DNA from: Candidatus Endomicrobiellum incisitermitis
Lineage (GTDB): Bacteria > Elusimicrobiota > Endomicrobiia > Endomicrobiales > Endomicrobiaceae
Length of the DNA: 64,000 nt
Reading direction: 5' to 3'
Assembly: GCA_031275795.1 (NCBI GenBank)
Contig: JAISOG010000005.1
Coordinates: forward strand, 69-64,068
Part shown: positions 46,596-64,000 of the stretch, one piece after another
Numbering within the stretch: the stretch's first letter is position 1
Layout: each line of letters opens with the position of its first letter
Made by a program: the position numbers and the translations under genes
Notes under the pieces: generated by a model
Seen by the model: only the letters and a program-made list of their open reading frames with translations
Database searches by the model: none
What the model was told of the DNA's origin: nothing

Positions 46596-46790
46596 TCTAG
46601 TTTAGAACCTTAACGGAGTTACCTCTAAGAGCGGCTTATGAGCAACAAACATTTAATAGTTCAAATTAGCACTGTATGAAGCAAAATTCATTTAAGTCTT
46701 TCTTGTCCTTTCATTTTGCGAGTTTGCTAATTTGTTTAAATGTTTCTTGCGATTGCTCTTAGTAACGTAGATAAGGTTCTAAACTAGACC
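46596..46790. repeat. Full copy of the hairpin repeat (opposite orientation to 15779-15972)
   Basis: Reverse complement aligns with 15779-15972 block by block. Outer arms are ctagtttagaacctta... / ...taaggttctaaactag. Confidence 0.75.
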
Positions 46791-46960
46791 AACCAAACTA
46801 ATATATGTCAGGTGAGCTGGTAGGAGGTTTGAGTGTCTGTGCGACGTATATGCGGTTGCTTAATGACTTATGAACATAGATAAAATGCTAAGCTATCTTT
46901 AATAATAAAATTTAATAATTGAATTAAATTAACAAAAATAAATAGGAAACAAAATTAAAA

Positions 46961-50803: not shown

Positions 50804-51163
50804 GTGAAGAACGTAAAAGAAGTGTTAAGTTTAAAAATTGTAAACTTTAAAGAAATTAGGTGTTTATTAAACAAAAATATAGCAGCGCTTGTGATTGTTT
50901 TTTGTATGGGAGTAAATGGAATTGTTCCAAAAGAAGTTAATATTAACAAAAACAGTTTAGTTTTAGTGGTTGATTTAGCCAGAGACACTGCAGTTAGAGA
51001 TATTTTTAAACGTTGTAACGAGAGTCTAATCATAATATCTAGTAAAATATCAAAAGAATTACAAATTTTTTTATTTCAAAGCTCTACTAATAGTAGTTAC
51101 ATGTCAGCGCAAAAAAGCACGCAGAACAATAAAATAAATGAATATTCAGGTAGGTTTTTATGA
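50804..51163 (+). CDS. Small hypothetical membrane protein, translationally coupled to the giant ORF
   Basis: GTG start 6 nt after AAAGGAG. One hydrophobic segment, IAALVIVFCMGVNGIV. Its TGA overlaps the giant ORF ATG (ATGA). Confidence 0.55.
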   Translation: MKNVKEVLSLKIVNFKEIRCLLNKNIAALVIVFCMGVNGIVPKEVNINKNSLVLVVDLARDTAVRDIFKRCNESLIIISSKISKELQIFLFQSSTNSSYMSAQKSTQNNKINEYSGRFL

Positions 51164-51288
51164 ACTTTAAAAGTAAGAAGTTGGACTACTTTAAAGAACA
51201 TTGGAAAAGACAGATATTTTTAAAAGGTGTATGTATGATTGTTAGTGCATGCATAATTTTAAACATAATAAATCTGCCAGCATATGCA
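51160..51288 (+). other. Giant ORF: N-terminal signal peptide / signal anchor
   Basis: MNFKSKKLDYFKEHWKRQIFLKGVCMIVSACIILNIINLPAYA: a basic n-region, a hydrophobic core, and A-x-A. Confidence 0.6.
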
Positions 51289-54200
51289 AATACACAAGAA
51301 GATCTTAGGAAGAAAGCTTTTAGCAGGGAAAACAAACAACAAGATGTTCTATATCAAAAAGACACGAGCTTTAATAGTGTTAGTGTGATGAACAGTTTGG
51401 AAGCAAATATAAAGATTGATAAAAAGACAGAAAATATATTTGTAGGCAAAGAGCTAAAAGGATTTTTGTCAAAAGAAAAAGATGGGCAAGGGCGTAGAAA
51501 AGTAATGGTGCATAAGGGAGAAAGTTTTGAGGAAGATGAAGTTTTAACAGCCATGGTAGACAATAAGCTTAAAGGCAGAAAGTCTAGTAGTGGTGTTGAA
51601 ACAAGACAGATATCACAAGATCAAAGATCACAAGATCAAAGATCGCAAGAGCAATCGCTAAGTGTAAAAGAAGGAGAATCCACACGACAACAAAAAGACA
51701 AAAGTGCCCAAGAGCAAGAAAGCAAAGAAGAAGTAAAAGAAGAAACTAGACAGTCTCAAAGCCCAAAAGAAGAAAGAGTAGCAAAACAACAAGGAGCTAA
51801 AGAAGGAGTAGAAAAAGAAGCCATAGAGGAAGCAAGAAGGGAACAAGAGCAAAGATCTAAGCAGGAAAGTCAAGGAGAGCAAGAAGAAAGGGAAACTGAA
51901 AGAGAAGGATCTATCAACGCACAAGAGCAGGTTTTACAAGGACAAAGAGATATAGATGTTGAAAAGGCTAGTTATACATCAAAAAGAGTGCAAGAACTGG
52001 CAGAATCTTTAGAAAAAGAAGAAAAAGATAGAGATAAAGTTATTGAAGAAATAGCAGAACAAACAGGGTTAAGTAAAGAGCAAGTAGAAGAAGAACTCTC
52101 AAAGCTAGATGAAGCGCAAAGAAAAGGAGTAATAGCAGCATTAGCTAAATTGTTTGGGCAAGGGAAAGATATAGTCTACTGCGTGGCAGAGGTTTTAGGG
52201 ACAGTGCTAAATGAAACAAATAAAGGGTTGTTAGGATTTGCAGCTATTTTAGCAGAGGCAATAGCAGGGATATTTGTAAAAAATAACCAAGATTTAATAA
52301 GTGGCAAATCTGAGCAGCTAATGTTAAGTGCGCAAGCAATACAAACAGTACTGAGAAAGTATGGTAAAGAGTATGTTGGGATAGATACAAATATTGATGA
52401 TATAATAGCAGGGCTTAATGTAGGAGAATCAGCAATAGTGCATGTTGGGACAAACCATTTTATAACAATAACAAAAAATGAAGATGGGACGTTTACAAAG
52501 ACAGACATAAACAAGTCTCAAGAAACATTAACAGCAAAGGAGCTTAAGTCAGCTCTGGAAAGGGAGTACGGTTTAAAGGAAGGCCAAACAACAACAGTAC
52601 TTGTAAAAGATGATAATGAGAAGTTTAAAGGGATAAAACGGGTAGATACACTGGGCGAAGTTTTAGGAGCAGAGCGAGAAGAATATGTTGGCATAGAAAT
52701 AAATATTAACCATATAATTGAGGGGCTTAATGTAGGGGAATCAGTAATAGTGTACGTTGTCAGAGACCGTTGTGTAACAATAACAAAGAATGAAGATGGA
52801 ACGTTTACAAAGACAGACAACGTAAACAATACACCAGAAACATTAACAGCACAGGAGCTTAAGCGTGTTATGGTAGAGCAGTACGACTTAAAGGAAGAAC
52901 AAATAACAAGAGTAGTTGTAAGAGCAGATAATGAGAAGTTTAAAAGGATTGTATATGATCTGAGCGAAGCTATAGGAGCACAGCGTCAATGGGATAAGAG
53001 CCAATTTGAAGGGAAATCGCAAGAAGAGTATTATAGGCAATATGGGGAAGAGTCGTACGAAAAGCTTATGATACAGATGTACGGGACAACAAGCTTAAGT
53101 CCAGAACAGTCAAGGGAGTTTGCAGCATTTTATGAAAAATTTTTAGAAGCAGCTATTATAGATATAGATAAAACAATGTCAGATGAAAAGGCATCAGAAG
53201 AATCCAAAGAAGTTGCAAAAGCATTAAAAACGCAGGCAGCAAAAGAGCTAGCAATTATTGAAGGGACGTTGGAAGTGTTAAGAGAACATGTAGGAGTAGT
53301 TAGTGGACAAGTAGGGCAAGTATTGCTTATACAAGAGAGGGCATATCCAAACGAAAGCCAAGGTATTGCAGAAGGAGAGTATTATCAAGTTATTACAATT
53401 TATGCAGACGATCTAAAAGAACAACATAGTATTGTAGGATCAGACGGAAAAAGTGTGTCTATAGAGAGTTATCGAATAAGTAGAGGGTGGTCAATAAGTA
53501 CAAGAGAAGGGGTAAGAGTAACGCGCAGTGATGGCAGCACATATCAAGTTTTTGGTATAGGAGGCAAGTTTGAAGGGATGGAAGTTGGATTTGAATATAT
53601 AGTTGCATATAATGCAAACGGAACATTTTATATGGACGAGCAAGCAAATATATATTTGCTAAATGATACAGATAGAGTTTATCAAGCAAGAGAAGAAAGA
53701 GGATCAAGGCCACCAACAAGTGGGATGTATAAAGGAGCAGCGCCAGAAAGAGAAAATTGGACGCATGGGAAAATAATAGAGACAGAGTCAGGATATATGA
53801 TATATGGAGCAGGAAGCAAAATTACTGTAAGAAAGACAAGCAGAGGATGGGAAGCAGACGCCATAGGAATAGGGACAGAGGCTATGAGAGGATCAGTGTT
53901 AAGAATATCAGCAAATGATCCAAACGGAGTAGCAGCGACGATATTCTTAGATATTAAAGAAGGGTTTATGGTGTATGCAGGGAACTATTGGGTACCTTCA
54001 GATGGATTTATCTGGCAATATGATGAAAGTGTAACTGCAGAGCAAATAGAACAATTCATAAAAAATACGATAAGTACGCAACTAGGATCCAATGCAGAGG
54101 GAATAGAAGAGATAGAGCTAATATATGGAGAAGCAGTAGAAGCAGCAAAAGCAAAAGCAAAAGAAAAAGCAGAAGAAGAAATAGAAGAAGAAAGAAAAAA

Positions 54201-57200
54201 ATATGCATCAGAGATCCCCCCAGCGCAATATAAGGCTGCACATAAAAAAGAGATAGAAGAAAAAGCACAAGAGTACTATGAGGATATATATGAACAAGAG
54301 GTAGCACAAACAAAAGAGGACTTTAAAAACAAAAAAATGCTAGGAGCGCCGTTTTCTACAGAGGCAATTTTTAAGTCTATGGGGATAAGTGCCAAAATCC
54401 ATACAAAAGCAGGGTTTACATATGATGGCACAAAATCTGATGGAGACATATATAAGCTTACAATAGAATCTGCTACAGTACTAGAAATAAAAGAGCAAGA
54501 TGGCGAGTTAGTTACGGTTGCAACAGAAGACATTAGAGTGAAAGCGGTTATAAGTGAAGGAGGTTGGGAGCTTGATAGTGGAGGCACTACACTGACTGAT
54601 AGTATTAAACAAGGGCAAGTGTTTTCATTTGCCACGGTGCTAAATAACGCAGGAAGGCAAATAGTAAATACAAGAGAAATTGAAATAATTACAGGATATG
54701 AAATTAGTGGGCATGATGAGAAGGGTAATAATTATTACGATTATAGTAAACCAAAATATTCAAAAATGGATCCTGGAACTTTTAAAGTAGGAGGAAATAG
54801 CGATGGGAAGTACATTTTAATAAATAATCTTTATATAAGTATTAGCAAGGGGAATTGGGAGGTGATGCAAGAGCAGTCTGGTAGTCAGTACGACAAAACA
54901 GAGGAAAATTGTGCGTATTGGCATGAAGGAGCCCAGATAACAATTTCTAAAAGAGGTAATACGTTTGATATTAGTATAAGTAAAGGGGACCTTACAGTAA
55001 AAAATCTAACAGTTACGTTATATCACAAGATGAACGATAGTAGTGGTGGAGGGGATGATAGTGATGATAGCTATGAAGGACCTAGGATAGAGGGAGCCTA
55101 TATAACAGATTATAAAGAGCTTTACAATAATATGTACTCATATAAAATACAAACAGGAACATTTAAAGGAGTTTCAGGAGAGCAAGGAACGCAAAACAGT
55201 TTAGGAAACTTTATGTTTGTTCCAGGCTCAGACTTCAAAAAAGGTTCGATTATACAAGCAGATGCGACAAGGGCAAAATATGATTCTAAGATAAAGAAGG
55301 ATGGGAGTATAGATGCCTACGGTGCAAAATGGTATGAAAAGCTCAGGGACGGGATAGTAGGATTCTTTAGTATATTAGCATTTTCTTTAATGACTATTTT
55401 TACGTTAGGAGCAATGATATGGGCAAAAGAAATGAAAGGGATGGGCTGGGCAAAAGAATGGGCAGCCATAACGTATGGGTATTGGAATCATGTGGAAGCA
55501 GACGGGAGTAATAAAGAAGCAGTACAAAGAGGGATGGATTTAGGAATAGCAGGACTTGCAGCAGTAGCAATATTAGTAGTAGCGGCAATATCTATAGCAG
55601 GTTCTATTTTTACAGGAGGAGCAAGTATTATAGGAGCAATAGGAGCAGTGGTGGCCCTAGCAGGAGCAGTAGCAAGTTCAGTAAGTGCAATAAATTTGAC
55701 AAATTCAGCAATACAAGCGTTTAGAGCAGGCAAAGGAGGGCAAGGAGCGTTAATGTTGTTTTTTGCATTGCTGACAGTAGTACTTGCATGCGTAGGAGCA
55801 GGGCAGATGGGCAGTACAATAGCGTCTGGGTTGGCAACATTAGGGAAACAATTTTTTATAAAGATGGCAGTAGGAGCAGTAATAGGAGCAGCAGCAGGAG
55901 CAGGAATAGCAGCAGCATCTTATGGTATAAGATATGCTATAGATAAATCAAAAGGTAGAGCTGAGGATTTTGACTGGGCAGAGTTTGGGAAAGAAGTAGG
56001 AATAGGAGCAATAACAGGAGCGTTTGCAGGAGCAGCAGCAGGAGCACAAGTGGCAACTGCAGTGGCAAAAAGTGTAGCAAAAGGAGTTGCTCAGGAGGTA
56101 GCAAAAGGAGTAGGAGAAGGAGTGGCAAAAGCGGTAGGAGAGGAAGTAGCAGAAGATGTTTCAAAAGAGATAACAAAGCAAGTGTCTAAAGAGGTAGGAG
56201 AAGAACTAGCCGGAAGCATAGCTGGAAAAGTTTCAAAAGATGTATTATCACAAATAACGGGAAGTTTAACAAAAGGAGTAAGTGTTGAAGTAGGTAAAGA
56301 AGTAGCAAAAAACGTTGCAAAAGAGGTAGGAGAAGGAGTGGCAGAAGAAGTAGCAAAAGATGTTAGTAAGGAAGTAGCAAAAAATGTTGTAGATGATTTA
56401 GCAACAAATGTAGCAAAAAGTGTAGAAGCGCAAATTGTGAAGGAGTTATCAGGTGAAGTTTCAAAAGAAGTAGGAGAAAAAATAGCAAAAAGTGTAGCAG
56501 AAAAAGTGGCAAAAAGCATATCAAGAAGTATCGCAGAGAAGGTAGGTGAGGAAGTTCCTGTGGGTGTTGGAGAAATAGCAAAAGAGCTGATTTTGGGAGG
56601 GACAAGTTTTAAAAGACAGGCAGGGCAAACCACTTTACAATTTGTAGGTACAGTTACAAAGTCAGTGATAACAGTAGTTAGCAGGGTTGGGATGCAAGCA
56701 TTAAATGGATATATGACGTACATGTCGGCAAAGAGTTTTGTTGATTGTATGGAAAAGGGAGATGTATTGGGCGCAGCCAAAGCATTGTACACACTGGTTT
56801 CCATAAACATAATAATGCCTGTTATGTCAGGCCATTCAGCAATTAAAGAGGACGGGACTTTAAAAGCATCAGATCTAGCAAAAGAAGGTGCAGGAGATTT
56901 GACAAGTACAGCAAAAAATACTGAGGTTGTTACTAAAGGTATAACAATCCAAGGGATGTCAATAGGTTGGAAAGTAGGATCAGTAGCTATAACGACAGTA
57001 GTAGGGGCTGGTGTAGGAGTGGGAATATCTGTTATAATAGATTTAGTAAGTGGTAAAAAGATAAAAGCTAAAGATCTCATAATAGGAGGAGGAGTTGGTG
57101 CGACTATTGGGTTCGGGTTTGGCGCACTTGCAACGAAAGCAGATTGGACTATGCTGGGCAACTCTGTTAAGACATCTCTAGCGAAAACCTTTGCGCCTTT

Positions 57201-60200
57201 TGCAGGGAGGACTGCCAACCTTGTGAGGGGCGCAGATGGTGATATTGTAGTTCAAGAGTTGAGTGAATTTAGTGGATCAACAATGGTTAGGTCCTGGGTT
57301 GGTCTTGTAGGAGGAGGAGCAATAGGAGTAGGTATAGGGGCAGGGATATGGGCAGTTAAAGGCCATAAGAAAGAAGATATGGCCAGGTATCTTATAGTAG
57401 GAGGAGTAGGAGGAAGTGTGGTAGGAGCAGGATTTGCAAATGCGTGGTCATCAGGAGGATATAAAGGAGCGTGGGCCAATTTTAAAGCAAATCCAAAAGC
57501 TGTTTTTATGGAAGCAAAAGGATATCTGCAAGAGTCTCTAGTTAAAAGTGTTACGATGGTGCAAGAGATAAATATGTTCAACACGTATATGGCCTATAGT
57601 ACAGGAATACTAAACCAAATATATAATAAAATTACAGGGGAGTCATTAGCAAATACAGATATTGTTAAATTTATTAATAAAGTAACAGGGATGAGTTTGT
57701 TCAAGTCGCAAGCAGATATAGAAGAAGATACAGAATTTGAAAAGAGGAAGAAGAAAGCACAAGAAAAAGGAGAAGAGTTTAAAGAAGAGGGAGTAGTTTA
57801 CAAAGCGGAGTTTGGACAGGAAGAAGCTAATGCGGTAATAGAGCAAAATTGGGGAAGTCTTACAAGTCCAACGATGTATGCAAGTAATGTAGTGGGAGGA
57901 TTTTTAAAGCCAGTGTTAGGGCCAGCGCTGCAACATTCGCCAATTTTAGGGAGTGTGATGAATGTTATGGAAAGTGCAGGAAGCGTGTCTATAATGCAAA
58001 AGCATAAAATAGTAAGTATGTTTTACAACATGGGAGTAAAAATAAGATTATTAAACATTATTTCAAAGCAAGTGTTTGACGATCCGAATGATCCAGAGGA
58101 TGATCAGATAGCAGAAGTTCTGGGAGGATTTGCATTTATGCAAATGTTTGAGACAATGGCACCTCAAACAATGCCAGCTCAAACCCAGGCAGAAGCAGAG
58201 AAATTTTTAACATCTGGGCAAGAAATTAGTAAGATGGTAGATGGTAACCAAATAAAAGTAGCCCTTGGTGAAGAAGTTTATAATTCAGCGACGTTGCTGA
58301 AGAAGGCAAGTAGTAAAGAAAAGTTTGAAGGTAACTTGAAAACAGTTTGTAGTAATTTAGGGTTAAGTTATGAAGTAGTTAGTCAGGAAGTAGGATTAGG
58401 CAAAAACTATAACCAAATAGTTAGCAGTCTTGTTATAGAGTACGTGTTAAAGGGAGTAAGTGAAAGAGGAGCATTGCCAGAGCAGATTCAAAAGGTTAGA
58501 AGTGAGTTAAATACAATAGTAGAAACAAGCCCAATAATGAAGCAAGGAGCAGGGTTATCTAGCTTTGATATAATTAATTCAATTTCATGTAAACTAAATT
58601 ATTTATATGCAAGTGCAAAAATACTAGAATTAAATGTAGAAGGAATAAGAGTAGAGAGTATTGCTAGTGGGAGTCTTAGTAAGGGAGAATATAAAAAAAT
58701 ACTTCAAGCTCAAGACGCAAAAGAAACAGGTTCAGGAGTAGTTTTACTTATGAACTACCTATCAGGAATAAGTTCAGTAAATAGTTTGCCAATAAATGAG
58801 CTTATAGGAGCAGTAAGTGAATATAATAATAAATTATTTGAGTTAAAGGAAGCAACAAAAGCAACACTAGCAGCACTTAAATTATTAAATCTAAGTGAAG
58901 ATCAAATTAATAGAATAAGTGAAATAGTGTTAAAAGAAGGATCAGTTAGTGCTGAGAATAAGTTAACAGAAGGAGCTAGCCAAGAAATAAGTAAGGTTTT
59001 AGGAAAAGCAGGGACAGAAGTTGTTGTAAAGCTAATAGTTGGAAATCTTGAAAGAAATATCAATATAGGGAGTATAAGAAACGCATTTGAGAATGTATAT
59101 TCTCAAAGAACAAAGATTACAATAGGGTATATGATGAGTATGCTTGCTACATCAGTTGTATCAAAAGAGGATCCTTTGACAAAAGAGTTGATGAGATCAT
59201 TAGAAAAACAATTATTTAGGGCAGATACATATGTTGTGTATACTACTTTTAGAGATAGTCCTGCGCTCAAAGAGGTAGGTGAAATAGAAAGTCTAAGAAA
59301 TATTATTCAACAAGCAAAAGCTGATCTTACATCAACACTTAAGTCATTAAGTGCGTTAAAGTTATCTGATATGCAAATTAATAAAATAAATGAAATAGTG
59401 TTAAAAGAAGGAGCAGTTGGTTCTGACAATAAGTTAACAAGGGAAGCTCAAGAGGGAATACAAGAAGTTGTTGGAAGTAAAGTTGTAACTAATCTTGTAG
59501 TTAGAAATATTGAAGAACTTAGAAGTATAGAAGGGACAAAACTTAGTGCAGAACAGAAAGGGCAGTTAGCATTGCTAGAAGCAATATATATGCCTCAAGA
59601 AATATCTTTAAATACTGCAATTAATAATCTAGTCAAGGAAGTTGCAAGTGGAAAATTGAGTTATGAAGAGTTTAACTTAGTAATAGGGGCATCAGACATT
59701 TTATATTCTAGAGTTACAAGTGTAGAACAAAGGAAGAAACTTGCTGATTATAGGAAGGAGATCACAGTAGCAGCAGTTAATATGACAAAAGAAGTTATCA
59801 AAGAGACAGCTAAATTACAAAAAGAAGGACAAATAACCAAAGGAGAAGCAAAGGGATTTTCAGAAAGTATTAGAAATGCTTTTAATGAAGTAGGCAAAGT
59901 AGGCAATATTAGCAGTTTGATGGGAGCAAATGCAAATGCTAGACGTATGTTAAGCTCTATTAGGGAAAGAGATATAGTGCAAGTAGTAGATGCACAGGGG
60001 AAGTTTTTATCATTTGATACTTCTGCTGGGAAAAATGTGATAGAAGTAAATAGGATAGAAAGTACAGCAAAAGGGATGAAGATAAACCTTACTGTTGACG
60101 GGAAAAATATAGGGGATGTAGTATTGAAAGGGAATCTTGAAGCGCTATCTAAAAACGAAAAGTTAGCACAAGCTATTGTAGAGAAATATCCTAATATGCT

Positions 60201-63200
60201 GGCCACAGATATTGCATTAAATAGAGCTTTAAGTGAGGCTATAAAACCGAATTTAGAAGTTCAGGCCAACAAAATAATAGAAATAGCAAGTAAAGCAGAG
60301 TCATTAGATGCCGATAAAAAAGTGACAAAAGAAGCCAGAATAGAGATAGAAGAAGTTGTAGGGAGTAAAGATATAGCAAACAAGATTATTAATAGTATAG
60401 AAGATGGAAATATTGGAGGCGTAAAAGATGTAGTGTATAGTTCAGTTGAGAAGATAATTGAAGTTTTAAATATGCAAGAAGCGTTTAGTAAAGAAGATGT
60501 TAATAAGTTGACAGAAGTATCCAAGAAGACAATACAAGAGCTAGTGAGAAACAAAGAAGTGGCAAATAATATTATAAGAAGTATAGAAGAAGTTAAGTTT
60601 TCAGATTTAAAAAAGGCACTACAAGAAGCATTATCAGGGCCAGAAGCATTAGTTTTAGGGGAAGGGTCATTTAGGATAGATGGTGAGGGCAAACAAATAG
60701 AAAACAAGGGATATATTTTATCGTCACAAGCAAAGAGTGCAATATTTAATTTATTAGGAGCAACAAATGCGACAAGAGTAATAGATAGTATAGATGCTCA
60801 GTTGAATACAGAAAAGATAGTAAACGACATAAAAACATTTAAGACTGATGCAAGCCAATTAATAAAGTTGTGTTCAGCAAATGTAAACCCTAGGGCAATA
60901 TCGATGTTATTTAGTCATTTAGAAGCAGATATCTCACCGCCAGACGGTAAAATAAAAATGTCTTTAGCAGATTTAGCTATATTGTGTGAGCAAACGCAAA
61001 ATGCAATAGCGCCACAACTAAAAGCGATGATAAATAAGATGATAAATGATAAGATGATAGATGATGAAAAGGAAGTAGAAAAAGCCGTTGACCAACTTTC
61101 TAAGTATTTAAAAGATTCAAGTTTACCTGAGAGAGAGACAATTTTTGAGCAAGTAAAAGAGAAAGTTAAATATAGTAATAATGTTGAAAATTCACAACTG
61201 TACGAAATAGTTAACCAGCATTTGGATGTTAGTAAGATTGTAAGTATTGCTATAGAAGAAATAGAGTTAATGAAAGGAGAAGGAAAATCTGAAGAAGAAA
61301 TAGTTGACAATGCAAATTTAAAGTTTGTTTTTGAAAATTCAGGATACCTTAGTCCGGATGCTTTATTACCAAGATTAAAACTATTAAGAGAGGAAAGTGC
61401 AGGTAAAACAAGATTAGAAATGATACAAGAGGAATTTTATGGAAAAGGAGGATATGTAGAGCAAGCAAAAGGATTTATAGAAACAAATACAATAGAGGTA
61501 GAAGGGAAAAAGAAGTTAAAGGAAGGGACAATAGATAGTTTAAGGGCGAAAGTGATAGCAATGGATTTGGAAGGGAAAGGGACAGAGGCAGTAAATTTGT
61601 TGAGGATAACATTAAATGAGTGTATGAGGCAAGCAGTAGGATTTGGGATAAGAGGATCACAGTCAGAACTAACAACGACATTACAAAATGATATAAATGC
61701 AGCATTGGGGATGGGAGGAGGAAAGACAGTATCCTTAGCATTAGATGCGGCGACGCAAAGGGTGTTGATGGGAAGTGCATTAAATTTAGAGATTTTGGTG
61801 GGCAATAGTGATTTAGAGAATTATGTAGGAGGGAGCTCACAAGCGCGAAAGTTTTTTGAGTTTGTAGGGATGAAAGCAGTAAGTATTAACGACTTTAAAC
61901 CAGAAGGAGGGCAAACAAACATAGGAAAGCTAAAAGAGGCATATCAAGACCCGAATGTAGTAGTGATAATGGACCCGACAATGAGGGGACATATGATGAA
62001 CGAAGCAGTAAGCAGAGGAGGAGAATCTGGGAGGGAACTAAGAGAAGTGTTGGAAAGTGTAAACAGGGTTACAGTAGACGAGGTACATTTGTGGGCGCTG
62101 ACGCGGACAGCAGCAGTAATAGGGGGAGATAACAAGCCACCAGATAAAGGGATAATAAAGAAGGCAGTAAAAATCGGAGATCTTATTAATGCTGAAAAGA
62201 TATATAAGCAGATAATAAAACCAGGAGCGATAGAGAAAACAATTACAATAGAAAAGAAAGAAGTTCTGGTAAAGCGTTTTAACAAAGAAGCAGATCTAAT
62301 AGAAGCGAAAGTGGAAGGGGAATATATAGCAATAATAGGAGAACAAACAGCGAGTATAGAAATAAGGATGTCAAAAGGAATAAGGGATGTATTGATAAAT
62401 AAGATAGGAAGCGCGCCAAAAGGATATACACCCGCAGGGATGTTATACAGTGTGATAAAGGGATTGTTTACAAGTTCAGAGAATGGGGGGATGGCAATAG
62501 GAGAGGACGGGAAAGTAAAACCAGTGGGAGCCACAGGAGTGCAGGAAAACATGGTTATTAATGATATATATTCACAGTTAGGGTTTGCATTAAAGAAAGG
62601 AATAGAGAAGAGAGTGTTTGATATAAGGGGATATATGTCAAAGAGTACGCAAATGAGTAATACAAGCATGCAGACGTCCCTAGCAGCGATATATAGTGGA
62701 GCAAGTGCGCGTATGGTAGGGATATCAGGGACAGTATCAGGGTTGGAGCAGCTAATAATAAACAGGACAGGATCAGGGAAGATATATAATATAACGGGAG
62801 AAAGAGTAGACCCGTCGATGTTTAATAGTGTTATGGAGATAGGGACTGCTTTATCAAAAGAAGTTATAAAAGAAAATCTTAAATCTTTAAGTGAATTGAA
62901 TTTGAATGAAAGTGTAATTAATGACATAGCTGAAATTGTTGCAAAGAAAGGAGCATTAGATGGTAATAACAAATTAACTCAAGAAGCTCAGGAAGAAATA
63001 AAAGAAATAATAGAAAAAGCTAAAGCTATTAAAAATCTTGAGAGGAATAAGGACAGTATAGAGGACAGTATAAGTATAGAGGACAGAATAAAGATTATTA
63101 GTGGAAGTATAGGGGATGGGTTAAGAGCAAAAATAACAAACGTTTTAATAAAAGCAATGCAAGATAAAACATTGTCACCAGACCCAGCATTAAATAATGC

Positions 63201-64000
63201 GCTGCTATTAGGGAAAACACAGGGGACAATAGAAAATTTTAGAAGTGCGGTTAAAAAAGCAATAGAAAATGTAGGAGGGATAGAAGCACTAGATGGGAAA
63301 GTAGAAATATTTGAGTTTACAGACAAGCAAGGGAAATGGACAGGAATAAATGAGAAGAGAGAAGTAGAAGTTAGTGGAGATTTAGGAAATAATATGAAAA
63401 GTATCACAGATGTGGCAAAGAATAAGAATATAAGACGAATAATAATAGCAAATGAGATGGGAGCAACAGGAGTAGATTATCAAGGGAATTATTTAAATAT
63501 AATAGCAGATGCACATTTGATGAGTAATACAGACTTAGCGCAAGCATTAAAGAGGACAGCGCGACCGAACAATTCTTTTAGTAAAGAAGGAGGATTGCAA
63601 AGGTGGACAACAGAAAGGGTAATAATGTACGACAAAGTAAAAGTGCAAAGTGAGTTGGATGCATTTAAAAATAATGGAGTATTTGTAGAGTATGCAAAGA
63701 AGTTGTGGGAAGGAGCAAAAGCAGGTGGTAATATGGAAGATGCAAAAAGTGTCAAATGGTTAGAAGTAATGGAGAAGGGGAATTTTGACATTTCAAATGC
63801 AGAAGTTATAGAGGGTTTGTATAAGTTAAGTGGAGGATATAAAGAAGGGGATAAAATAGATACAAAAAGCCCGGAAGTTATAGATATAGCGATGAAAGAA
63901 GCGATAACATTTATATCAAAGATCCAGGATTTGAGATCAGTAGACGGGTCAATAAGATTTACAATAAATGATTCAATAAGAGACAGGATGGTATTGAGTG
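51160..64000 (+). CDS. Giant multidomain membrane protein, 3'-incomplete (more than 4,280 codons, no stop before the window end)
   Basis: ATG 51160 with GGTAGG 5 nt upstream; an in-frame TAG at 51151-51153 bounds it upstream. I translated every 60-nt line in this frame to 64000 and found no stop. It is absent from the ORF track because it has no stop in the window. Confidence 0.9.
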   Translation, partial: MNFKSKKLDYFKEHWKRQIFLKGVCMIVSACIILNIINLPAYANTQEDLRKKAFSRENKQQDVLYQKDTSFNSVSVMNSLEANIKIDKKTENIFVGKELKGFLSKEKDGQGRRKVMVHKGESFEEDEVLTAMVDNKLKGRKSSSGVETRQISQDQRSQDQRSQEQSLSVKEGESTRQQKDKSAQEQESKEEVKEETRQSQSPKEERVAKQQGAKEGVEKEAIEEARREQEQRSKQESQGEQEERETEREGSINAQEQVLQGQRDIDVEKASYTSKRVQELAESLEKEEKDRDKVIEEIAEQTGLSKEQVEEELSKLDEAQRKGVIAALAKLFGQGKDIVYCVAEVLGTVLNETNKGLLGFAAILAEAIAGIFVKNNQDLISGKSEQLMLSAQAIQTVLRKYGKEYVGIDTNIDDIIAGLNVGESAIVHVGTNHFITITKNEDGTFTKTDINKSQETLTAKELKSALEREYGLKEGQTTTVLVKDDNEKFKGIKRVDTLGEVLGAEREEYVGIEININHIIEGLNVGESVIVYVVRDRCVTITKNEDGTFTKTDNVNNTPETLTAQELKRVMVEQYDLKEEQITRVVVRADNEKFKRIVYDLSEAIGAQRQWDKSQFEGKSQEEYYRQYGEESYEKLMIQMYGTTSLSPEQSREFAAFYEKFLEAAIIDIDKTMSDEKASEESKEVAKALKTQAAKELAIIEGTLEVLREHVGVVSGQVGQVLLIQERAYPNESQGIAEGEYYQVITIYADDLKEQHSIVGSDGKSVSIESYRISRGWSISTREGVRVTRSDGSTYQVFGIGGKFEGMEVGFEYIVAYNANGTFYMDEQANIYLLNDTDRVYQAREERGSRPPTSGMYKGAAPERENWTHGKIIETESGYMIYGAGSKITVRKTSRGWEADAIGIGTEAMRGSVLRISANDPNGVAATIFLDIKEGFMVYAGNYWVPSDGFIWQYDESVTAEQIEQFIKNTISTQLGSNAEGIEEIELIYGEAVEAAKAKAKEKAEEEIEEERKKYASEIPPAQYKAAHKKEIEEKAQEYYEDIYEQEVAQTKEDFKNKKMLGAPFSTEAIFKSMGISAKIHTKAGFTYDGTKSDGDIYKLTIESATVLEIKEQDGELVTVATEDIRVKAVISEGGWELDSGGTTLTDSIKQGQVFSFATVLNNAGRQIVNTREIEIITGYEISGHDEKGNNYYDYSKPKYSKMDPGTFKVGGNSDGKYILINNLYISISKGNWEVMQEQSGSQYDKTEENCAYWHEGAQITISKRGNTFDISISKGDLTVKNLTVTLYHKMNDSSGGGDDSDDSYEGPRIEGAYITDYKELYNNMYSYKIQTGTFKGVSGEQGTQNSLGNFMFVPGSDFKKGSIIQADATRAKYDSKIKKDGSIDAYGAKWYEKLRDGIVGFFSILAFSLMTIFTLGAMIWAKEMKGMGWAKEWAAITYGYWNHVEADGSNKEAVQRGMDLGIAGLAAVAILVVAAISIAGSIFTGGASIIGAIGAVVALAGAVASSVSAINLTNSAIQAFRAGKGGQGALMLFFALLTVVLACVGAGQMGSTIASGLATLGKQFFIKMAVGAVIGAAAGAGIAAASYGIRYAIDKSKGRAEDFDWAEFGKEVGIGAITGAFAGAAAGAQVATAVAKSVAKGVAQEVAKGVGEGVAKAVGEEVAEDVSKEITKQVSKEVGEELAGSIAGKVSKDVLSQITGSLTKGVSVEVGKEVAKNVAKEVGEGVAEEVAKDVSKEVAKNVVDDLATNVAKSVEAQIVKELSGEVSKEVGEKIAKSVAEKVAKSISRSIAEKVGEEVPVGVGEIAKELILGGTSFKRQAGQTTLQFVGTVTKSVITVVSRVGMQALNGYMTYMSAKSFVDCMEKGDVLGAAKALYTLVSINIIMPVMSGHSAIKEDGTLKASDLAKEGAGDLTSTAKNTEVVTKGITIQGMSIGWKVGSVAITTVVGAGVGVGISVIIDLVSGKKIKAKDLIIGGGVGATIGFGFGALATKADWTMLGNSVKTSLAKTFAPFAGRTANLVRGADGDIVVQELSEFSGSTMVRSWVGLVGGGAIGVGIGAGIWAVKGHKKEDMARYLIVGGVGGSVVGAGFANAWSSGGYKGAWANFKANPKAVFMEAKGYLQESLVKSVTMVQEINMFNTYMAYSTGILNQIYNKITGESLANTDIVKFINKVTGMSLFKSQADIEEDTEFEKRKKKAQEKGEEFKEEGVVYKAEFGQEEANAVIEQNWGSLTSPTMYASNVVGGFLKPVLGPALQHSPILGSVMNVMESAGSVSIMQKHKIVSMFYNMGVKIRLLNIISKQVFDDPNDPEDDQIAEVLGGFAFMQMFETMAPQTMPAQTQAEAEKFLTSGQEISKMVDGNQIKVALGEEVYNSATLLKKASSKEKFEGNLKTVCSNLGLSYEVVSQEVGLGKNYNQIVSSLVIEYVLKGVSERGALPEQIQKVRSELNTIVETSPIMKQGAGLSSFDIINSISCKLNYLYASAKILELNVEGIRVESIASGSLSKGEYKKILQAQDAKETGSGVVLLMNYLSGISSVNSLPINELIGAVSEYNNKLFELKEATKATLAALKLLNLSEDQINRISEIVLKEGSVSAENKLTEGASQEISKVLGKAGTEVVVKLIVGNLERNINIGSIRNAFENVYSQRTKITIGYMMSMLATSVVSKEDPLTKELMRSLEKQLFRADTYVVYTTFRDSPALKEVGEIESLRNIIQQAKADLTSTLKSLSALKLSDMQINKINEIVLKEGAVGSDNKLTREAQEGIQEVVGSKVVTNLVVRNIEELRSIEGTKLSAEQKGQLALLEAIYMPQEISLNTAINNLVKEVASGKLSYEEFNLVIGASDILYSRVTSVEQRKKLADYRKEITVAAVNMTKEVIKETAKLQKEGQITKGEAKGFSESIRNAFNEVGKVGNISSLMGANANARRMLSSIRERDIVQVVDAQGKFLSFDTSAGKNVIEVNRIESTAKGMKINLTVDGKNIGDVVLKGNLEALSKNEKLAQAIVEKYPNMLATDIALNRALSEAIKPNLEVQANKIIEIASKAESLDADKKVTKEARIEIEEVVGSKDIANKIINSIEDGNIGGVKDVVYSSVEKIIEVLNMQEAFSKEDVNKLTEVSKKTIQELVRNKEVANNIIRSIEEVKFSDLKKALQEALSGPEALVLGEGSFRIDGEGKQIENKGYILSSQAKSAIFNLLGATNATRVIDSIDAQLNTEKIVNDIKTFKTDASQLIKLCSANVNPRAISMLFSHLEADISPPDGKIKMSLADLAILCEQTQNAIAPQLKAMINKMINDKMIDDEKEVEKAVDQLSKYLKDSSLPERETIFEQVKEKVKYSNNVENSQLYEIVNQHLDVSKIVSIAIEEIELMKGEGKSEEEIVDNANLKFVFENSGYLSPDALLPRLKLLREESAGKTRLEMIQEEFYGKGGYVEQAKGFIETNTIEVEGKKKLKEGTIDSLRAKVIAMDLEGKGTEAVNLLRITLNECMRQAVGFGIRGSQSELTTTLQNDINAALGMGGGKTVSLALDAATQRVLMGSALNLEILVGNSDLENYVGGSSQARKFFEFVGMKAVSINDFKPEGGQTNIGKLKEAYQDPNVVVIMDPTMRGHMMNEAVSRGGESGRELREVLESVNRVTVDEVHLWALTRTAAVIGGDNKPPDKGIIKKAVKIGDLINAEKIYKQIIKPGAIEKTITIEKKEVLVKRFNKEADLIEAKVEGEYIAIIGEQTASIEIRMSKGIRDVLINKIGSAPKGYTPAGMLYSVIKGLFTSSENGGMAIGEDGKVKPVGATGVQENMVINDIYSQLGFALKKGIEKRVFDIRGYMSKSTQMSNTSMQTSLAAIYSGASARMVGISGTVSGLEQLIINRTGSGKIYNITGERVDPSMFNSVMEIGTALSKEVIKENLKSLSELNLNESVINDIAEIVAKKGALDGNNKLTQEAQEEIKEIIEKAKAIKNLERNKDSIEDSISIEDRIKIISGSIGDGLRAKITNVLIKAMQDKTLSPDPALNNALLLGKTQGTIENFRSAVKKAIENVGGIEALDGKVEIFEFTDKQGKWTGINEKREVEVSGDLGNNMKSITDVAKNKNIRRIIIANEMGATGVDYQGNYLNIIADAHLMSNTDLAQALKRTARPNNSFSKEGGLQRWTTERVIMYDKVKVQSELDAFKNNGVFVEYAKKLWEGAKAGGNMEDAKSVKWLEVMEKGNFDISNAEVIEGLYKLSGGYKEGDKIDTKSPEVIDIAMKEAITFISKIQDLRSVDGSIRFTINDSIRDRMVLS
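52141..52515 (+). other. Giant ORF: putative papain-fold (C39-like) cysteine peptidase module
   Basis: FGQGKDIVYCVAEVLG (Gln then Cys341, nt 52180-52182) ... LRKYGKEYVGI ... ESAIVHVGTNHFITITKNEDGTFTKTD (His433 at nt 52456-52458, downstream Asp). This parallels the C39 order Q..C ... H(F/Y)VV ... D. Confidence 0.5.
52369..52992 (+). repeat. Giant ORF: tandem 2 x 312-nt (104-aa) duplication
   Basis: Unit 1 is EYVGIDTNIDDIIAGLNVGESAIVHVGTNHFITITKNEDGTFTKTD...DNEKFKGI...LGAERE. Unit 2 is EYVGIEININHIIEGLNVGESVIVYVVRDRCVTITKNEDGTFTKTD...DNEKFKRI...IGAQRQ. Long stretches are identical at the nucleotide level. Confidence 0.85.
55351..56040 (+). other. Giant ORF: first cluster of Gly/Ala-rich hydrophobic (TM-like) segments
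   Basis: GIVGFFSILAFSLMTIFTLGAMIW; LGIAGLAAVAILVVAAISIAGSIF; ASIIGAIGAVVALAGAVASSV; ALMLFFALLTVVLACVGAG; MAVGAVIGAAAGAGIAAA; VGIGAITGAFAGAAAGA. Confidence 0.7.
56041..56568 (+). repeat. Giant ORF: 44 consecutive 4-residue repeats [small]-x-x-[V/I/L]
   Basis: GAQV ATAV AKSV AKGV AQEV AKGV GEGV AKAV GEEV AEDV SKEI TKQV ... AEKV GEEV PVGV. Strict 12-nt periodicity with no indel over 528 nt. Confidence 0.9.
56941..57450 (+). other. Giant ORF: second cluster of glycine-zipper hydrophobic segments
   Basis: VGSVAITTVVGAGVGVGISVIIDLV; LIIGGGVGATIGFGFGALA; WVGLVGGGAIGVGIGAGIWAV; YLIVGGVGGSVVGAGFANAW. Confidence 0.7.
58876..59004 (+). repeat. Giant ORF: helical module, copy A
   Basis: LKLLNLSEDQINRISEIVLKEGSVSAENKLTEGASQEISKVLG. 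Confidence 0.8.
59356..59478 (+). repeat. Giant ORF: helical module, copy B
   Basis: LKLSDMQINKINEIVLKEGAVGSDNKLTREAQEGIQEVVGS. Confidence 0.8.
61561..63600 (+). other. Giant ORF: SecA-like DEAD-motor ATPase region (NBD1 / insert / NBD2)
   Basis: Walker A GMGGGKT (61708-61728), Walker B DEVH (62077-62088), GISGTVSG, ANEMGATGVDY (63448-63480) and QALKRTARP (63541-63567). These are collinear with the E. coli SecA motif blocks. Confidence 0.7.
62896..63018 (+). repeat. Giant ORF: helical module, copy C (inside the ATPase region)
   Basis: LNLNESVINDIAEIVAKKGALDGNNKLTQEAQEEIKEIIEK. Confidence 0.8.

What the first reader, a model, noticed from the sequence alone, without database searches (positions are those of the whole stretch)
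51160..64000. Giant ORF hidden from the ORF track: more than 4,280 codons open to the window edge
Seen directly: the frame set by ATG 51160 has no stop through 64000. I checked this line by line; every 60-nt line starts in frame. An upstream in-frame TAG at 51151-51153 fixes the start region. The ATG overlaps the stop of the preceding small ORF (ATGA) and follows GGTAGG. The track shows only antisense ORFs with L/S/F/P-rich nonsense translations, as expected opposite a strongly purine-rich coding strand. The protein order is: signal anchor, Q/E/K/R-rich linker, Cys-His peptidase-like module, ~800 aa beta-looking region, multi-pass glycine-zipper membrane region with a tetrad repeat, ~1,400 aa helical region, then a SecA-like ATPase. 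Inference: a membrane-embedded, ATP-driven machine with a large exported part. Giant ORFs have been reported in some uncultivated lineages, but I cannot place this one, and its end lies beyond the window.
Basis: seen in the sequence. Interest (0 to 1): 0.92.

Follow-up and report, generated by a model that had tools for sequence, protein, structure and literature searches.

The report
Giant membrane protein with SecA-like motor
The open frame is real: it is the first roughly 80% of a gene for a protein of about 5,400 amino acids in an uncultivated termite-gut Endomicrobium. The protein joins an exported cysteine protease, a multi-pass membrane anchor and a very divergent SecA-type ATPase, a design so far described only for giant proteins of Omnitrophota, and its function is untested.

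Summary
**Observation.** It is confirmed. ATG 51160 opens 4,280 codons with no stop to the window edge (chance about 1e-164). The start matches the N-termini of homologues. The source contig, an Endomicrobium sp. MAG of 64,105 bp, ends there too. A complete collinear orthologue of about 5,164 aa implies about 1,170 missing residues, so about 5,450 aa in total.

**Modules.**
- The N-terminus is an extended, conserved signal peptide.
- A charged linker follows it.
- Next is a divergent C39/papain-type Cys-His-Asp peptidase.
- A beta-rich region follows, modelled only at low confidence.
- About nine glycine-zipper transmembrane helices flank a 4-residue periodic repeat.
- The ATPase model matches SecA best, and its insertion sits at the position of SecA's PPXD domain.

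**Family.** It is rare: 51 representatives among 1.84 billion proteins. It is nearly free of Pfam matches. Close members come from Endomicrobiaceae and Elusimicrobiota MAGs.

**Neighbours and relatives.** A small upstream gene is conserved and translationally coupled. A close relative carries the gene broken by a 5-nt insertion.

**Verdict.** This is a real gene and a new variant of the C39 + transmembrane + SecA-like giant-protein design reported from Omnitrophota. The proposed mechanism, an ATP-driven polypeptide translocation machine, is inferred and not shown.

The parts
50804..51163 (+). Small conserved upstream gene (119 aa, GTG start). It has one hydrophobic segment with a Cys (NIAALVIVFCMGVNG), and its stop overlaps the giant gene's ATG (ATGA).
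   Evidence: It is 36% identical (E 2e-19) to the ORF directly upstream of the orthologous giant gene in L003. It is 72% identical to L022:2452-2775, upstream of the orthologue there. It has no Pfam or NCBIfam match.
51160..64000 (+). Giant ORF: 4,280 codons, open at the window and contig end. The estimated full length is about 5,450 aa.
   Evidence: no stop; P about 1e-164. (complete collinear orthologue in L006:35-15550; the window end corresponds to its residue 4006 of 5172). (contig 64,105 bp).
51160..51288 (+). Extended signal peptide or signal anchor, aa 1-43 (MNFKSKKLDYFKEHWKRQ - hydrophobic 19-37 - NLPAYA|N).
   Evidence: Hydropathy peak of 2.42 at aa 19-37. The N-terminus is conserved in L006, P0003 and P0054. 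Cleavage and orientation are inferred from the positive-inside rule and the AxA motif.
51547..52149 (+). E/K/Q/R-rich low-complexity linker, aa ~130-330, with 15-nt tandem repeats.
   Evidence: Composition; tandem repeats at 51601-51654 and 51770-51820.
52147..52659 (+). Divergent C39/papain-type cysteine peptidase domain, aa ~330-500. Candidate triad: C341 (52180-52182), H433 (52456-52458) and the Asp of TDIN.
   Evidence: Cys, His and Asp are conserved in all orthologues. Pfam PF03412 is the top hit in 5 of 5 orthologous segments: E 0.011 here, 7.8e-5 in P0003, which is above the gathering score. In the AF2 model pLDDT is 75-90 over this domain, with the Cys at a helix N-terminus and the His on a strand. 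Foldseek matches are Josephin DUB, PCAT1, LahT and ComA peptidase domains, E 2e-3 to 0.2.
52672..52959 (+). Window-specific tandem duplicate of the C-terminal half of the peptidase domain, aa 505-600. It lacks the His (VVRDRCV in place of VGTNHFI).
   Evidence: The alignment shows a gap of about 100 aa in all orthologues. Overlapping subject ranges appear in BLAST. The duplicate is absent in the 84%-identical relative L022.
53317..55344 (+). Exported beta-rich region of unknown fold, aa ~720-1395.
   Evidence: It is conserved in L006, P0053, P0014 and P0008 at 30-45% identity. AF2 predicts beta strands for aa 720-960, but at pLDDT below 50. It has no Pfam or NCBIfam match.
55351..55929 (+). 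Transmembrane cluster 1, aa 1398-1590: about 5 helices rich in GxxxG/AxxxG.
   Evidence: Hydropathy peaks at aa 1398, 1461, 1490, 1530 and 1565. Equivalent clusters occur in L006 and P0003.
56047..56559 (+). Tetrad repeat (V-[AGS]-[KE]-x)n, aa ~1630-1800. It is predicted to be cytoplasmic and lies between the two transmembrane clusters.
   Evidence: 12/24/36-nt tandem arrays at 56049-56516. An analogous A/G/Q/K repeat sits at the same place in L006 and P0017. The NCBIfam T3SS-translocon hit (E 2.9e-7, 30 bits against a cut-off of 540) is judged compositional.
56977..57459 (+). Transmembrane cluster 2, aa ~1940-2100: two repeats of a glycine-zipper helical hairpin, about 4 helices.
   Evidence: Hydropathy peaks at aa 1942, 1973 and 2047. 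The fourth helix (LIVGGVGGSVVGAGFANAW) was read from the sequence.
57460..61578 (+). Region of about 1,370 aa, predicted to be cytoplasmic, with no database match. It holds three copies of a ~60-aa module (LSxxQINxIxEIVxKxGAxxxxNKLT) at aa 2563-2633, 2723-2779 and 3023-3067.
   Evidence: Internal BLAST E 8e-12, 9e-12 and 2.5e-4. There is a weak Pfam hit to wHTH-PRTase_assc. No other Pfam or NCBIfam hit was found.
61579..63999 (+). SecA-like two-RecA-domain ATPase, aa 3474-4280. Motifs: Walker A GMGGGKT (61708-61728), Walker B DEVH (62077-62088), motif III SGT (62725-62733), motif V NEMGATG (63451-63471) and motif VI QALKRTAR (63541-63564). A ~210-aa insertion lies between Walker B and motif III.
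   Evidence: All motifs are invariant in 13 sequences of 20-45% identity. AF2 gives pLDDT 73.9. The Foldseek PDB top 6 are SecA or SecA2, E 1.2e-9 to 1.4e-8, followed by MDA5/RIG-I. hhalign sub-alignments to E. coli SecA are collinear at motifs I, II, III and VI but individually weak. Pfam Helicase_C or DEAD hits occur in 4 and 2 of the 13 members respectively.
62845..63039 (+). Fourth copy of the 60-aa module, inserted between the two RecA-like domains of the ATPase (aa 3896-3960). It is absent at this position in the homologues.
   Evidence: Homologue HSPs break at aa ~3891-4002, with only about 13-25 residues on their side. Internal repeat search. Model pLDDT here is 55-65.

Best explanation
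**What it is.** This is the 5' ~80% of a real chromosomal gene in an uncultivated Endomicrobium (Elusimicrobiota, a diderm). It encodes a single inner-membrane protein of about 5,450 aa.

**Proposed layout** (topology inferred from hydropathy and charge):
- An extended Sec-type signal peptide exports the first ~1,350 residues to the periplasmic side.
- That exported part carries a charged linker, a C39/papain-type Cys-His-Asp protease and a beta-rich region.
- About nine glycine-zipper helices, in clusters of 5 and 4, anchor the protein and return the chain to the cytoplasm.
- By homology, a further ~1,170-aa tail with one more transmembrane segment lies beyond the contig end.

**Proposed mechanism** (inferred). 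The SecA-type motor uses ATP to push polypeptide across the membrane. The path would be either a pore formed by the protein's own glycine-zipper helices or SecYEG. The external protease then trims or releases exported material.

The motor is translated about 3,400 residues after the exported part. It therefore more likely acts on other copies or on separate client proteins than on its own N-terminus.

The conserved, translationally coupled small upstream protein is a probable partner.
For: **The gene is real.** The frame is open and collinear homologues cover it end to end.

**Host and setting.**
- Window proteins match an Endomicrobium sp. MAG exactly.
- The relatives found lie almost entirely in Endomicrobium, Endomicrobiaceae or Elusimicrobium MAGs; one locus is binned as Lachnospiraceae.
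- Relatives encode BamA, LpxC and LpxD next to the gene, so the host is a diderm.
- The window carries tuf-secE-nusG-rplKA, nusA-infB and leuS, so this is chromosome and not a mobile element.

**Protease.** The Cys, His and Asp are conserved. C39 is the top Pfam hit in 5 of 5 orthologous segments. The fold matches C39 and Josephin domains.

**Membrane part.** Hydropathy gives helices in clusters of 5 and 4. With an N-in signal anchor, this puts the N-terminal part outside and the ATPase inside. Signal-like N-termini, transmembrane clusters upstream of the ATPase and transmembrane segments downstream of it recur in distant relatives.

**Motor.**
- The motifs are invariant across 13 sequences.
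- SecA and SecA2 are the best structural matches.
- The ~210-aa insertion lies between Walker B and motif III, where SecA carries its preprotein-binding domain. In RIG-I-like helicases the insertion lies in the second RecA domain (secondary structure; established knowledge of SecA and RLR architecture).
- SecA-typical strings align: FDYLRDNMA with RGHMMNEAV, DEARTPLIISG with LTRTAAVIGG, and QTLASIT...KLAGMTGTA with QTSLAAIY...RMVGISGTV (and direct reading).

**Literature.** Omnitrophota giant proteins combine an N-terminal C39 domain near a signal peptide, many transmembrane helices and divergent SecA domains (bioRxiv 10.1101/2023.11.21.568195; 10.64898/2026.06.07.730766).

**Partner gene.** It is conserved in the three loci that have upstream sequence: the window, L003 and L022.
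Against: **No sequence-profile link to SecA.**
- Pfam SecA_DEAD and SecA_PP_bind do not hit any of the 13 family members, even at E 0.1.
- A family profile finds neither SecA nor any helicase in the PDB sequences.
- hhalign to E. coli SecA gives a probability below 2%.

**Foldseek separates the candidates only modestly.** SecA scores 1e-9 and MDA5 2.5e-8, and TM-scores are low (~0.34). Walker B is DExH, as in RIG-I-type helicases, and not the DEVD of SecA.

**Topology is crude.** It rests on a hydropathy count. No dedicated predictor was available, and an even number of helices would put the protease and the ATPase on the same side.

**Known C39 domains are cytoplasmic.**

**The beta region model is unreliable**.

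**The gene may be dispensable.** A close relative has it broken by a 5-nt insertion and a second frame change.

**There is no expression or biochemical evidence.**
Confidence: 0.55

Rival explanations
1. The ATPase is a membrane-tethered SF2 nucleic-acid helicase or translocase of the DExH/RIG-I-like kind. On this reading the giant protein handles DNA or RNA at the membrane, for example in uptake, export or defence, and does not translocate polypeptide.
For: - Walker B is DEVH.
- Pfam hits in family members are to Helicase_C (4 of 13, best 2.4e-5), DEAD, ResIII and a type I restriction R domain. None is to SecA.
- MDA5, RIG-I and Dicer helicases follow SecA closely in Foldseek, at E 2.5e-8 and up.
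Against: - The six best structural hits are SecA or SecA2.
- The large insertion is in RecA domain 1, between motifs II and III, as in SecA and not as in RLRs.
- SecA-typical strings flank motifs Ib, II and III.
- No nucleic-acid-binding domain was detected anywhere in the 4,280 aa.
- Transmembrane segments lie on both sides of the motor.
Confidence: 0.15
2. The product is a polyprotein or pro-protein. The ORF is translated once and then cut, by its own C39-type protease or by other proteases, into several independent proteins. On this reading 'one giant machine' is the wrong picture.
For: - A conserved protease lies near the N-terminus.
- West-Roberts et al. raise the same possibility for C39/S8 domains of Omnitrophota giants.
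- Long low-complexity linkers separate the modules.
- In a close relative the gene exists as separate reading frames.
Against: - By the topology count the protease is on the opposite side of the membrane from about 60% of the chain.
- No conserved double-glycine sites were identified.
- The break in the relative is a 5-nt frameshifting insertion with an immediate stop and no new start signal, which looks like decay and not a designed split.
Confidence: 0.15
3. The exported N-terminal part is the functional end. It would be a surface or periplasmic adhesin or hydrolase used in contact with other cells or with a protist host. The SecA-like domain would then serve only to export or insert this one protein, as proposed for Omnitrophota giants.
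For: - The architecture parallels Omnitrophota giants, for which self-export was proposed.
- The best fold match of the protease is a chlamydial Josephin-type deubiquitinase.
- Many Endomicrobia live in or on termite-gut flagellates (established knowledge).
Against: - The motor is synthesised about 3,400 residues after the exported region, so export in cis would have to be post-translational.
- No adhesin, lectin or glycoside-hydrolase domain was detected.
- The most conserved parts of the family are the motor and the protease, not the beta region.
Confidence: 0.12
4. The ORF is an assembly artefact: a chimeric or collapsed contig, or a decaying pseudogene that happens to stay open.
For: - The sequence is a short-read MAG contig that ends inside the gene.
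- The gene contains internal repeats.
- A close relative carries a frameshifted copy.
Against: - The chance of 4,280 open codons is about 1e-164.
- Independent homologues are collinear over the whole length.
- Catalytic motifs are invariant.
- A complete orthologue of 5,164 aa exists in another genus.
Confidence: 0.03

Closest known systems
Giant membrane proteins of Omnitrophota with C39 and SecA-like domains ('Archaeovorin' and related classes; West-Roberts et al. 2023, bioRxiv 10.1101/2023.11.21.568195; Nielsen & Lui 2026, bioRxiv 10.64898/2026.06.07.730766)
   Same: - The order of parts is the same: signal peptide, N-terminal C39-type peptidase, numerous transmembrane helices, and a divergent SecA-type DEAD motor with transmembrane segments nearby.
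- Most of the chain has no annotation.
- The hosts are uncultivated PVC-related bacteria.
   Different: - The host is Endomicrobium (Elusimicrobiota), not Omnitrophota.
- The size is about 5.4 kaa, against 10-147 kaa.
- No glycosyl hydrolase, glycosyl transferase, dockerin or other enzyme domains were found.
- The SecA-like and C39 domains fall below Pfam thresholds here, whereas those papers found theirs with HMMs.
- A phmmer search of 1.84 billion representatives with the motor returned no protein longer than 7,000 aa. There is therefore no detectable sequence link to the >10-kaa giants.
SecA / SecA2 preprotein translocase ATPases
   Same: - The motor has two RecA-like domains.
- A large insertion lies between Walker B and motif III.
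- These are the best structural matches (1tf5, 5k9t, 6t4h).
- SecA-typical sequence strings lie around motifs Ib, II and III.
   Different: - No Pfam SecA_DEAD or SecA_PP_bind hit was found.
- Walker B is DExH.
- The motor is embedded in a membrane protein of about 5,400 aa, whereas SecA is a soluble ~100-kDa protein.
- An extra 60-aa module sits between the RecA domains.
- The scaffold and wing domains could not be examined because they lie beyond the contig end.
Peptidase-containing ABC transporters (PCAT1, ComA, LahT; family C39)
   Same: - The protease is papain-like with a Cys/His/Asp triad.
- It is fused in one chain to transmembrane helices and an ATP-driven motor.
- Fold matches to PCAT1, LahT and ComA peptidase domains were found.
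- C39 is the best Pfam family.
   Different: - The motor is SecA-type and not an ABC cassette.
- The protease follows a signal peptide and is predicted to be extracytoplasmic, whereas PCAT peptidases are cytoplasmic.
- No double-glycine substrate gene was identified.
- The protein is about eight times larger.
RIG-I-like / DExH SF2 helicases (MDA5, RIG-I, Dicer helicase)
   Same: - Walker B is DExH.
- The core has two RecA-like domains with an inserted domain.
- These are the second-best group of fold matches.
   Different: - The insertion is in RecA domain 1, not domain 2.
- No RNA-binding C-terminal domain was found.
- The setting is membrane-embedded.

Membership tests
SecA family (Pfam PF07517 SecA_DEAD + PF01043 SecA_PP_bind) | Sequence-profile match to SecA_DEAD or SecA_PP_bind at the gathering score | tested here: not met
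   No hit for the window protein (whole or in segments, E up to 1), nor for any of the 13 family members at E up to 0.1. A family profile against PDB sequences finds no SecA.
SecA family (Pfam PF07517 SecA_DEAD + PF01043 SecA_PP_bind) | Two RecA-like nucleotide-binding domains with intact Walker A, Walker B and motifs III, V and VI | tested here: met
   G47 G48 K49, D167 E168 H170, G381 T385, N625 G631 and Q655 R659 R662 are invariant in 13 sequences. The AF2 model shows an alpha/beta core.
SecA family (Pfam PF07517 SecA_DEAD + PF01043 SecA_PP_bind) | Preprotein-binding domain inserted in NBD1 between motif II and motif III | tested here: inconclusive
   A ~210-aa alpha/beta insertion lies exactly there, and full-length SecA structures are the best Foldseek matches. 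The insertion was not compared with PPXD as a separate domain.
SecA family (Pfam PF07517 SecA_DEAD + PF01043 SecA_PP_bind) | Helical scaffold and wing domains after NBD2 | not testable with these tools
   This region lies beyond the window and contig end. The model ends in a long helix (residues 765-806) of low confidence. The tails of the homologues have no Pfam match.
Peptidase family C39 (Pfam PF03412) | Profile match at the gathering score (22 bits) | tested here: not met
   The window segment scores 16.0 bits, E 0.011. C39 is nevertheless the top hit in all five orthologous segments, and P0003 reaches 22.9 bits.
Peptidase family C39 (Pfam PF03412) | Catalytic Cys at a helix N-terminus, His on a beta strand, and a downstream Asp | tested here: met
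   C341, H433 and the Asp of TD[IP]N are conserved in all orthologues. Their positions in the model are helix 31-41 and strand 124-130.
Peptidase family C39 (Pfam PF03412) | Papain-like fold matching solved C39 domains | tested here: inconclusive
   Foldseek matches PCAT1, LahT and ComA peptidase domains (probability ~1.0, but E only 1.5e-2 to 0.17). A Josephin DUB ranks first at 2e-3.
Omnitrophota-type giant C39/TM/SecA proteins | Architecture: signal peptide + N-terminal C39 + many transmembrane helices + divergent SecA-like motor | tested here: met
   compared with the description.
Omnitrophota-type giant C39/TM/SecA proteins | Detectable sequence homology to those proteins, and a length of at least 10,000 aa | tested here: not met
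   The exhaustive phmmer search with the motor returned 51 proteins, none longer than 6,999 aa. The estimated length here is about 5,450 aa. Named relatives are from Elusimicrobiota and one 'Deltaproteobacteria' MAG.

The most novel reading that the evidence does not exclude
The conserved core may be a previously unrecognised secretion or translocation system built as a single polypeptide. That core is an external papain-type protease, a glycine-zipper membrane bundle and a SecA-type motor, plus a small coupled partner protein. The motor would be fused to its own channel, would work independently of SecYEG, and would be shared in very divergent form between Endomicrobia, other Elusimicrobiota, some 'Deltaproteobacteria' and the Omnitrophota giants.
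Probability: 0.15. Interest if true: 0.85.

Novelty: new variant of a known kind. Interest (0 to 1): 0.55.

Why it matters
**It widens the known range of the design.** Giant bacterial genes are usually lost to assembly fragmentation and ORF-calling rules, as happened here. This case shows that the C39 + transmembrane + SecA-like design reported for predatory Omnitrophota also exists in a much smaller form. That form is invisible to Pfam, and it sits in termite-gut Endomicrobia and a few other lineages.

**It offers a more tractable model.** At about 5.4 kaa it is compact: one protease, one membrane bundle, one motor and a small partner gene. That makes it far easier to study than the 40-150-kaa proteins when asking what a SecA-type motor does inside a membrane protein.

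**It suggests how to find more.** Structure-based searches, and not HMM libraries, are needed to find the rest of this class.

**It hints at lineage-specific use.** The broken copy in a close relative suggests the gene is dispensable in some lineages, which could be correlated with lifestyle (free-living or endosymbiotic).

Tried and rejected
**Searches that failed or found nothing**
- The word-indexed homology search with all 4,280 aa timed out.
- The same search with the 13-sequence profile A1 returned nothing at all.
- A single-sequence search and a profile search against PDB sequences found no SecA, helicase or protease.
- Pfam and NCBIfam on the whole protein and on 8-9 segments gave nothing significant. 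Two near-hits were set aside as compositional or spurious. One was the fungal adhesin domain DIPSY, at 24.4 bits against a cut-off of 25, inside the degenerate peptidase duplicate. The other was the T3SS translocon model NF011889, on the tetrad repeat.
- Pfam on the C-terminal tails of four homologues and on four distant full-length relatives gave essentially nothing.

**Attempts to recover the missing 3' end**
- Looking up the neighbouring ABC-F gene returned only a 3.4-kb contig.
- The GTDB and JGI scans did not return the source contig.
- The source contig ends with the window.
- Following RodA orthologues in related MAGs showed a different gene order and no giant gene downstream.

**Other checks that led nowhere**
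- Downstream neighbours of the orthologues are unrelated housekeeping genes, so there is no conserved downstream operon.
- Self-BLAST with default settings showed no internal repeats. A module-seeded search was needed.

**Ideas considered and dropped**
- That the 60-aa LSxxQINxI...G module is a double-glycine leader recognised by the C39 domain. The spacing does not fit, and the modules are predicted to lie on the other side of the membrane.
- That the N-terminus is an ESPR or KxYKxGKxW-type signal. There is no Pfam hit.
- That the region is a mobile element or prophage. The context is core chromosome.
Full report
**1.
- Translating 51160-63999 with table 11 gives 4,280 codons without a stop. 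The nearest upstream in-frame stop is TAG 51151-51153.
- With the local base composition, a random codon is a stop with probability 0.085. The chance of such an open frame is about 1e-164, and the other two + frames hold 580 and 368 stops.
- The ORF lister omits ORFs that run off the source, so it shows only three antisense ORFs across this stretch.
- ATG 51160 overlaps the stop of a small ORF (ATGA) and follows AGGTAGG.
- Orthologues start at the same residue with the same sequence, MN[FL]K[ST]K..YF...WK, so the start codon is right.
- Codon usage in frame 0 fits the housekeeping genes of the window best.

**2. Where it comes from.**
- The window is ordinary chromosome. It carries tRNAs, tuf-rpmG-secE-nusG-rplK-rplA, rimP-nusA-infB-rbfA-truB-ribF, rodA, leuS, dxs and pgi.
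- Exact protein matches identify it as a 64,105-bp contig of an NCBI MAG named Endomicrobium sp., with proteins MDR2066330 to MDR2066367. The contig, not just the window, ends inside the gene.
- Relatives of the giant protein lie next to BamA, OmpH, LpxD, LpxC-FabZ and LpxA, so the hosts are diderms.

**3. How long it really is.**
- An exhaustive phmmer search of 1.84 billion representative proteins with aa 3081-4280 found only 51 proteins. Full-length or near full-length members have 4,826 to 6,999 aa.
- Scans of GTDB genomes and JGI metagenomes found 8 and 5 loci. All named ones belong to Endomicrobium, Endomicrobiaceae or Elusimicrobium MAGs from termite gut, rumen and groundwater, apart from one bin labelled Lachnospiraceae that is probably mis-binned.
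- In 'Ca. Endomicrobiellum meruensis' (L006) the orthologue is complete. It is about 5,164 aa long and collinear from the first residue. The window end corresponds to its residue 4006 of 5172.
- The window gene therefore probably lacks about 1,170 residues and encodes about 5,450 aa.
- Together the homologues cover all of aa 1-4280 collinearly, which argues against a chimera.

**4. Anatomy, N to C.**
- *aa 1-43.* A K/R-rich stretch is followed by a hydrophobic segment and NLPAYA|N. This N-terminus is longer and more conserved than an ordinary signal peptide.
- *aa ~130-330.* An E/K/Q/R-rich linker with 15-nt tandem repeats.
- *aa ~330-500.* A divergent C39-type peptidase.
  - C341, H433 and an Asp are conserved in every orthologue.
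  - Peptidase_C39 is the top Pfam hit in all five orthologous segments, with E from 7.8e-5 to 0.011. One hit is above the gathering score; the window copy is below it.
  - The AF2 model is confident here (pLDDT 75-90) and places the Cys at a helix N-terminus and the His on a strand.
  - Foldseek returns only papain-fold peptidases among its high-probability hits: a Josephin DUB and the PCAT1, LahT and ComA C39 domains. The E-values are weak, 2e-3 and above.
- *aa 505-600.* A tandem duplicate of the second half of the peptidase that has lost the His. It is found only in this genome.
- *aa ~720-1395.* A conserved region predicted as beta strands but modelled with low confidence.
- *aa 1398-1590 and ~1940-2100.* About 5 and about 4 glycine-zipper helices.
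- *Between those two clusters.* A (V-[AGS]-[KE]-x)n repeat, visible in the DNA as 12/24/36-nt arrays. It is conserved in kind in the orthologues.
- *aa 2101-3473.* No database match. This region holds three copies of a 60-aa module. A fourth copy is inserted inside the ATPase, only in this genome.
- *aa 3474-4280.* The ATPase, described next.

**5. The ATPase is SecA-like by fold and topology but not by profile.**
- In an alignment of 13 family members (20-45% identity), Walker A, Walker B (DExH) and motifs III, V and VI are invariant. The motor is therefore under selection as an active ATPase.
- Pfam detects only generic Helicase_C or DEAD in a minority of members, and never SecA_DEAD or SecA_PP_bind.
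- The family profile finds nothing in the PDB sequences.
- An AF2 model (pLDDT 73.9, pTM 0.57) matches SecA and SecA2 best. The top six hits have E from 1.2e-9 to 1.4e-8. MDA5/RIG-I-type helicases follow about twenty-fold behind.
- Two further points favour SecA.
  - The ~210-aa insertion sits between Walker B and motif III. That is the place of SecA's preprotein-binding domain, whereas RLR helicases carry their insertion in the second RecA domain (family knowledge).
  - hhalign sub-alignments to E. coli SecA are collinear over motifs I, II, III and VI. They bring together SecA-typical strings: DYLRDN with RGH..N, ARTPLIISG with TRTAAVIGG, and QTLASI...KLAGMTGTA with QTSLAAI...RMVGISGTV. Each sub-alignment is individually insignificant.
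- I rate 'SecA-type motor' at about 0.7 and 'generic nucleic-acid helicase' at about 0.15.

**6. Topology and mechanism (inferred).**
- The positive-inside rule and the AYA site put the N-terminal ~1,350 aa outside the cytoplasm.
- Nine helices then return the chain to the cytoplasm.
- Homologues add one or more transmembrane segments in the tail after the motor.
- The same plan recurs in distant relatives that share only the motor: a signal-like N-terminus, transmembrane helices before the motor and transmembrane segments after it.
- The most economical reading is an ATP-driven polypeptide-translocating membrane machine with an external protease.
- The motor is made minutes after the exported part, so I favour action on other copies or on clients over export in cis.
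- None of this has been shown experimentally.

**7. Neighbours.**
- Downstream genes of the orthologues are unrelated.
- Upstream, the 119-aa ORF 50804-51163 is conserved in both other loci where upstream sequence exists: 36% identity in L003 and 72% in L022. In the window it is translationally coupled to the giant gene, so it is a likely partner.

**8. Comparison with what is known.**
- West-Roberts et al. (bioRxiv 10.1101/2023.11.21.568195) describe Omnitrophota giant proteins with N-terminal C39 domains near signal peptides, many transmembrane helices and divergent SecA domains that lack the scaffold and wing. They suggest self-export.
- They note very large genes in Elusimicrobiota but do not analyse them.
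- A 2026 preprint finds C39 and SecA_DEAD to be the largest architecture clusters among 916 long Omnitrophota proteins.
- No paper found here deals with Endomicrobia.
- The present protein shares the design but differs in several ways. It is 2-30 times smaller and lacks all the enzyme and dockerin domains. It is invisible to Pfam. It shows no sequence link to any protein above 7,000 aa in an exhaustive search.
- Distant relatives of 3,800-4,900 aa also have essentially no Pfam matches.
- It is therefore best filed as a new variant of a known kind. It is not a member of the SecA family, nor formally of C39, by profile criteria.

**9. A sign of dispensability.**
- In a relative about 84% identical at the DNA level, the orthologue carries a 5-nt insertion (ACTAT) after codon ~397. 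The insertion creates a TAG stop, and there is another frame change near codon ~800. Two independent assemblies show the same breaks.
- The gene is thus being lost, or is split, in at least one sister lineage, while it is intact over 4,280 codons here.

**10. Verdict.**
- It is still a rare, unannotated family with an untested and potentially new translocation mechanism, and it may be the most compact example of that design.
- Interest is 0.55.

Noticed in passing
window 50246-50269 and 50615-50638; also 407-430 (-) and 34977-35000 (-): A perfect 24-nt inverted repeat (CGCGTTCATAACATATTAGACTTT) flanks 345 nt between tRNA-Val and the small upstream gene. On the minus strand the enclosed stretch reads like the stop-riddled C-terminal end of a transposase. 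The same 24-mer occurs at two more places in the window, against 0 expected by chance. This looks like an IS or MITE family.
   Followed up: partly
L022:3151-6174 and L023:449-2476 (relatives; equivalent to window 51160-54200): In an Endomicrobium relative about 84% identical, the giant gene is broken. A 5-nt insertion (ACTAT) after codon ~397 gives a TAG stop, and there is a second frame change near codon ~800. Two assemblies show the same breaks, so this is probably a pseudogene.
   Followed up: yes
window 52672-52959: A tandem duplication of about 100 aa covers the C-terminal half of the peptidase domain. The catalytic His is replaced in the copy. The duplication is absent from all orthologues, including the 84%-identical relative, so it is recent.
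   Followed up: yes
window 62845-63039, with further copies at 58846-59058, 59326-59496 and 60226-60360: A 60-aa module (LSxxQINxIxEIVxKxGA....NKLT, with a weak Pfam wHTH-PRTase_assc hit) occurs four times. One copy has been inserted between the two RecA-like domains of the ATPase in this genome only.
   Followed up: partly
window 51160-63999 compared with housekeeping genes of the window: Third codon positions of the giant gene are 49% A and 26% T. The housekeeping genes on the same strand have 37% A and 39% T. The giant gene therefore has a marked extra purine bias, which remains unexplained.
   Followed up: no
window 46098-46960 and 46961-48307 (rodA); L020, L021: In related Endomicrobium MAGs, rodA follows mreB-mreC-mreD-pbp2, and no giant gene lies downstream. 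In the window, rodA follows ribF after an 860-nt gap that has only a dubious ORF. The region has therefore been rearranged, and the giant-gene locus is not syntenic.
   Followed up: partly
L012 (JAISGP010000049.1) and P0053: Two fragments of Endomicrobia-type giant genes, 42-45% identical to the window protein, are deposited under 'Lachnospiraceae bacterium' termite-gut bins. This is most likely mis-binning.
   Followed up: no
window 56230-56568 (aa 1690-1803): The tetrad repeat gives an NCBIfam hit to a type III secretion translocon protein (NF011889) at E 2.9e-7, but at 30 bits against a cut-off of 540. The hit is probably compositional.
   Followed up: no
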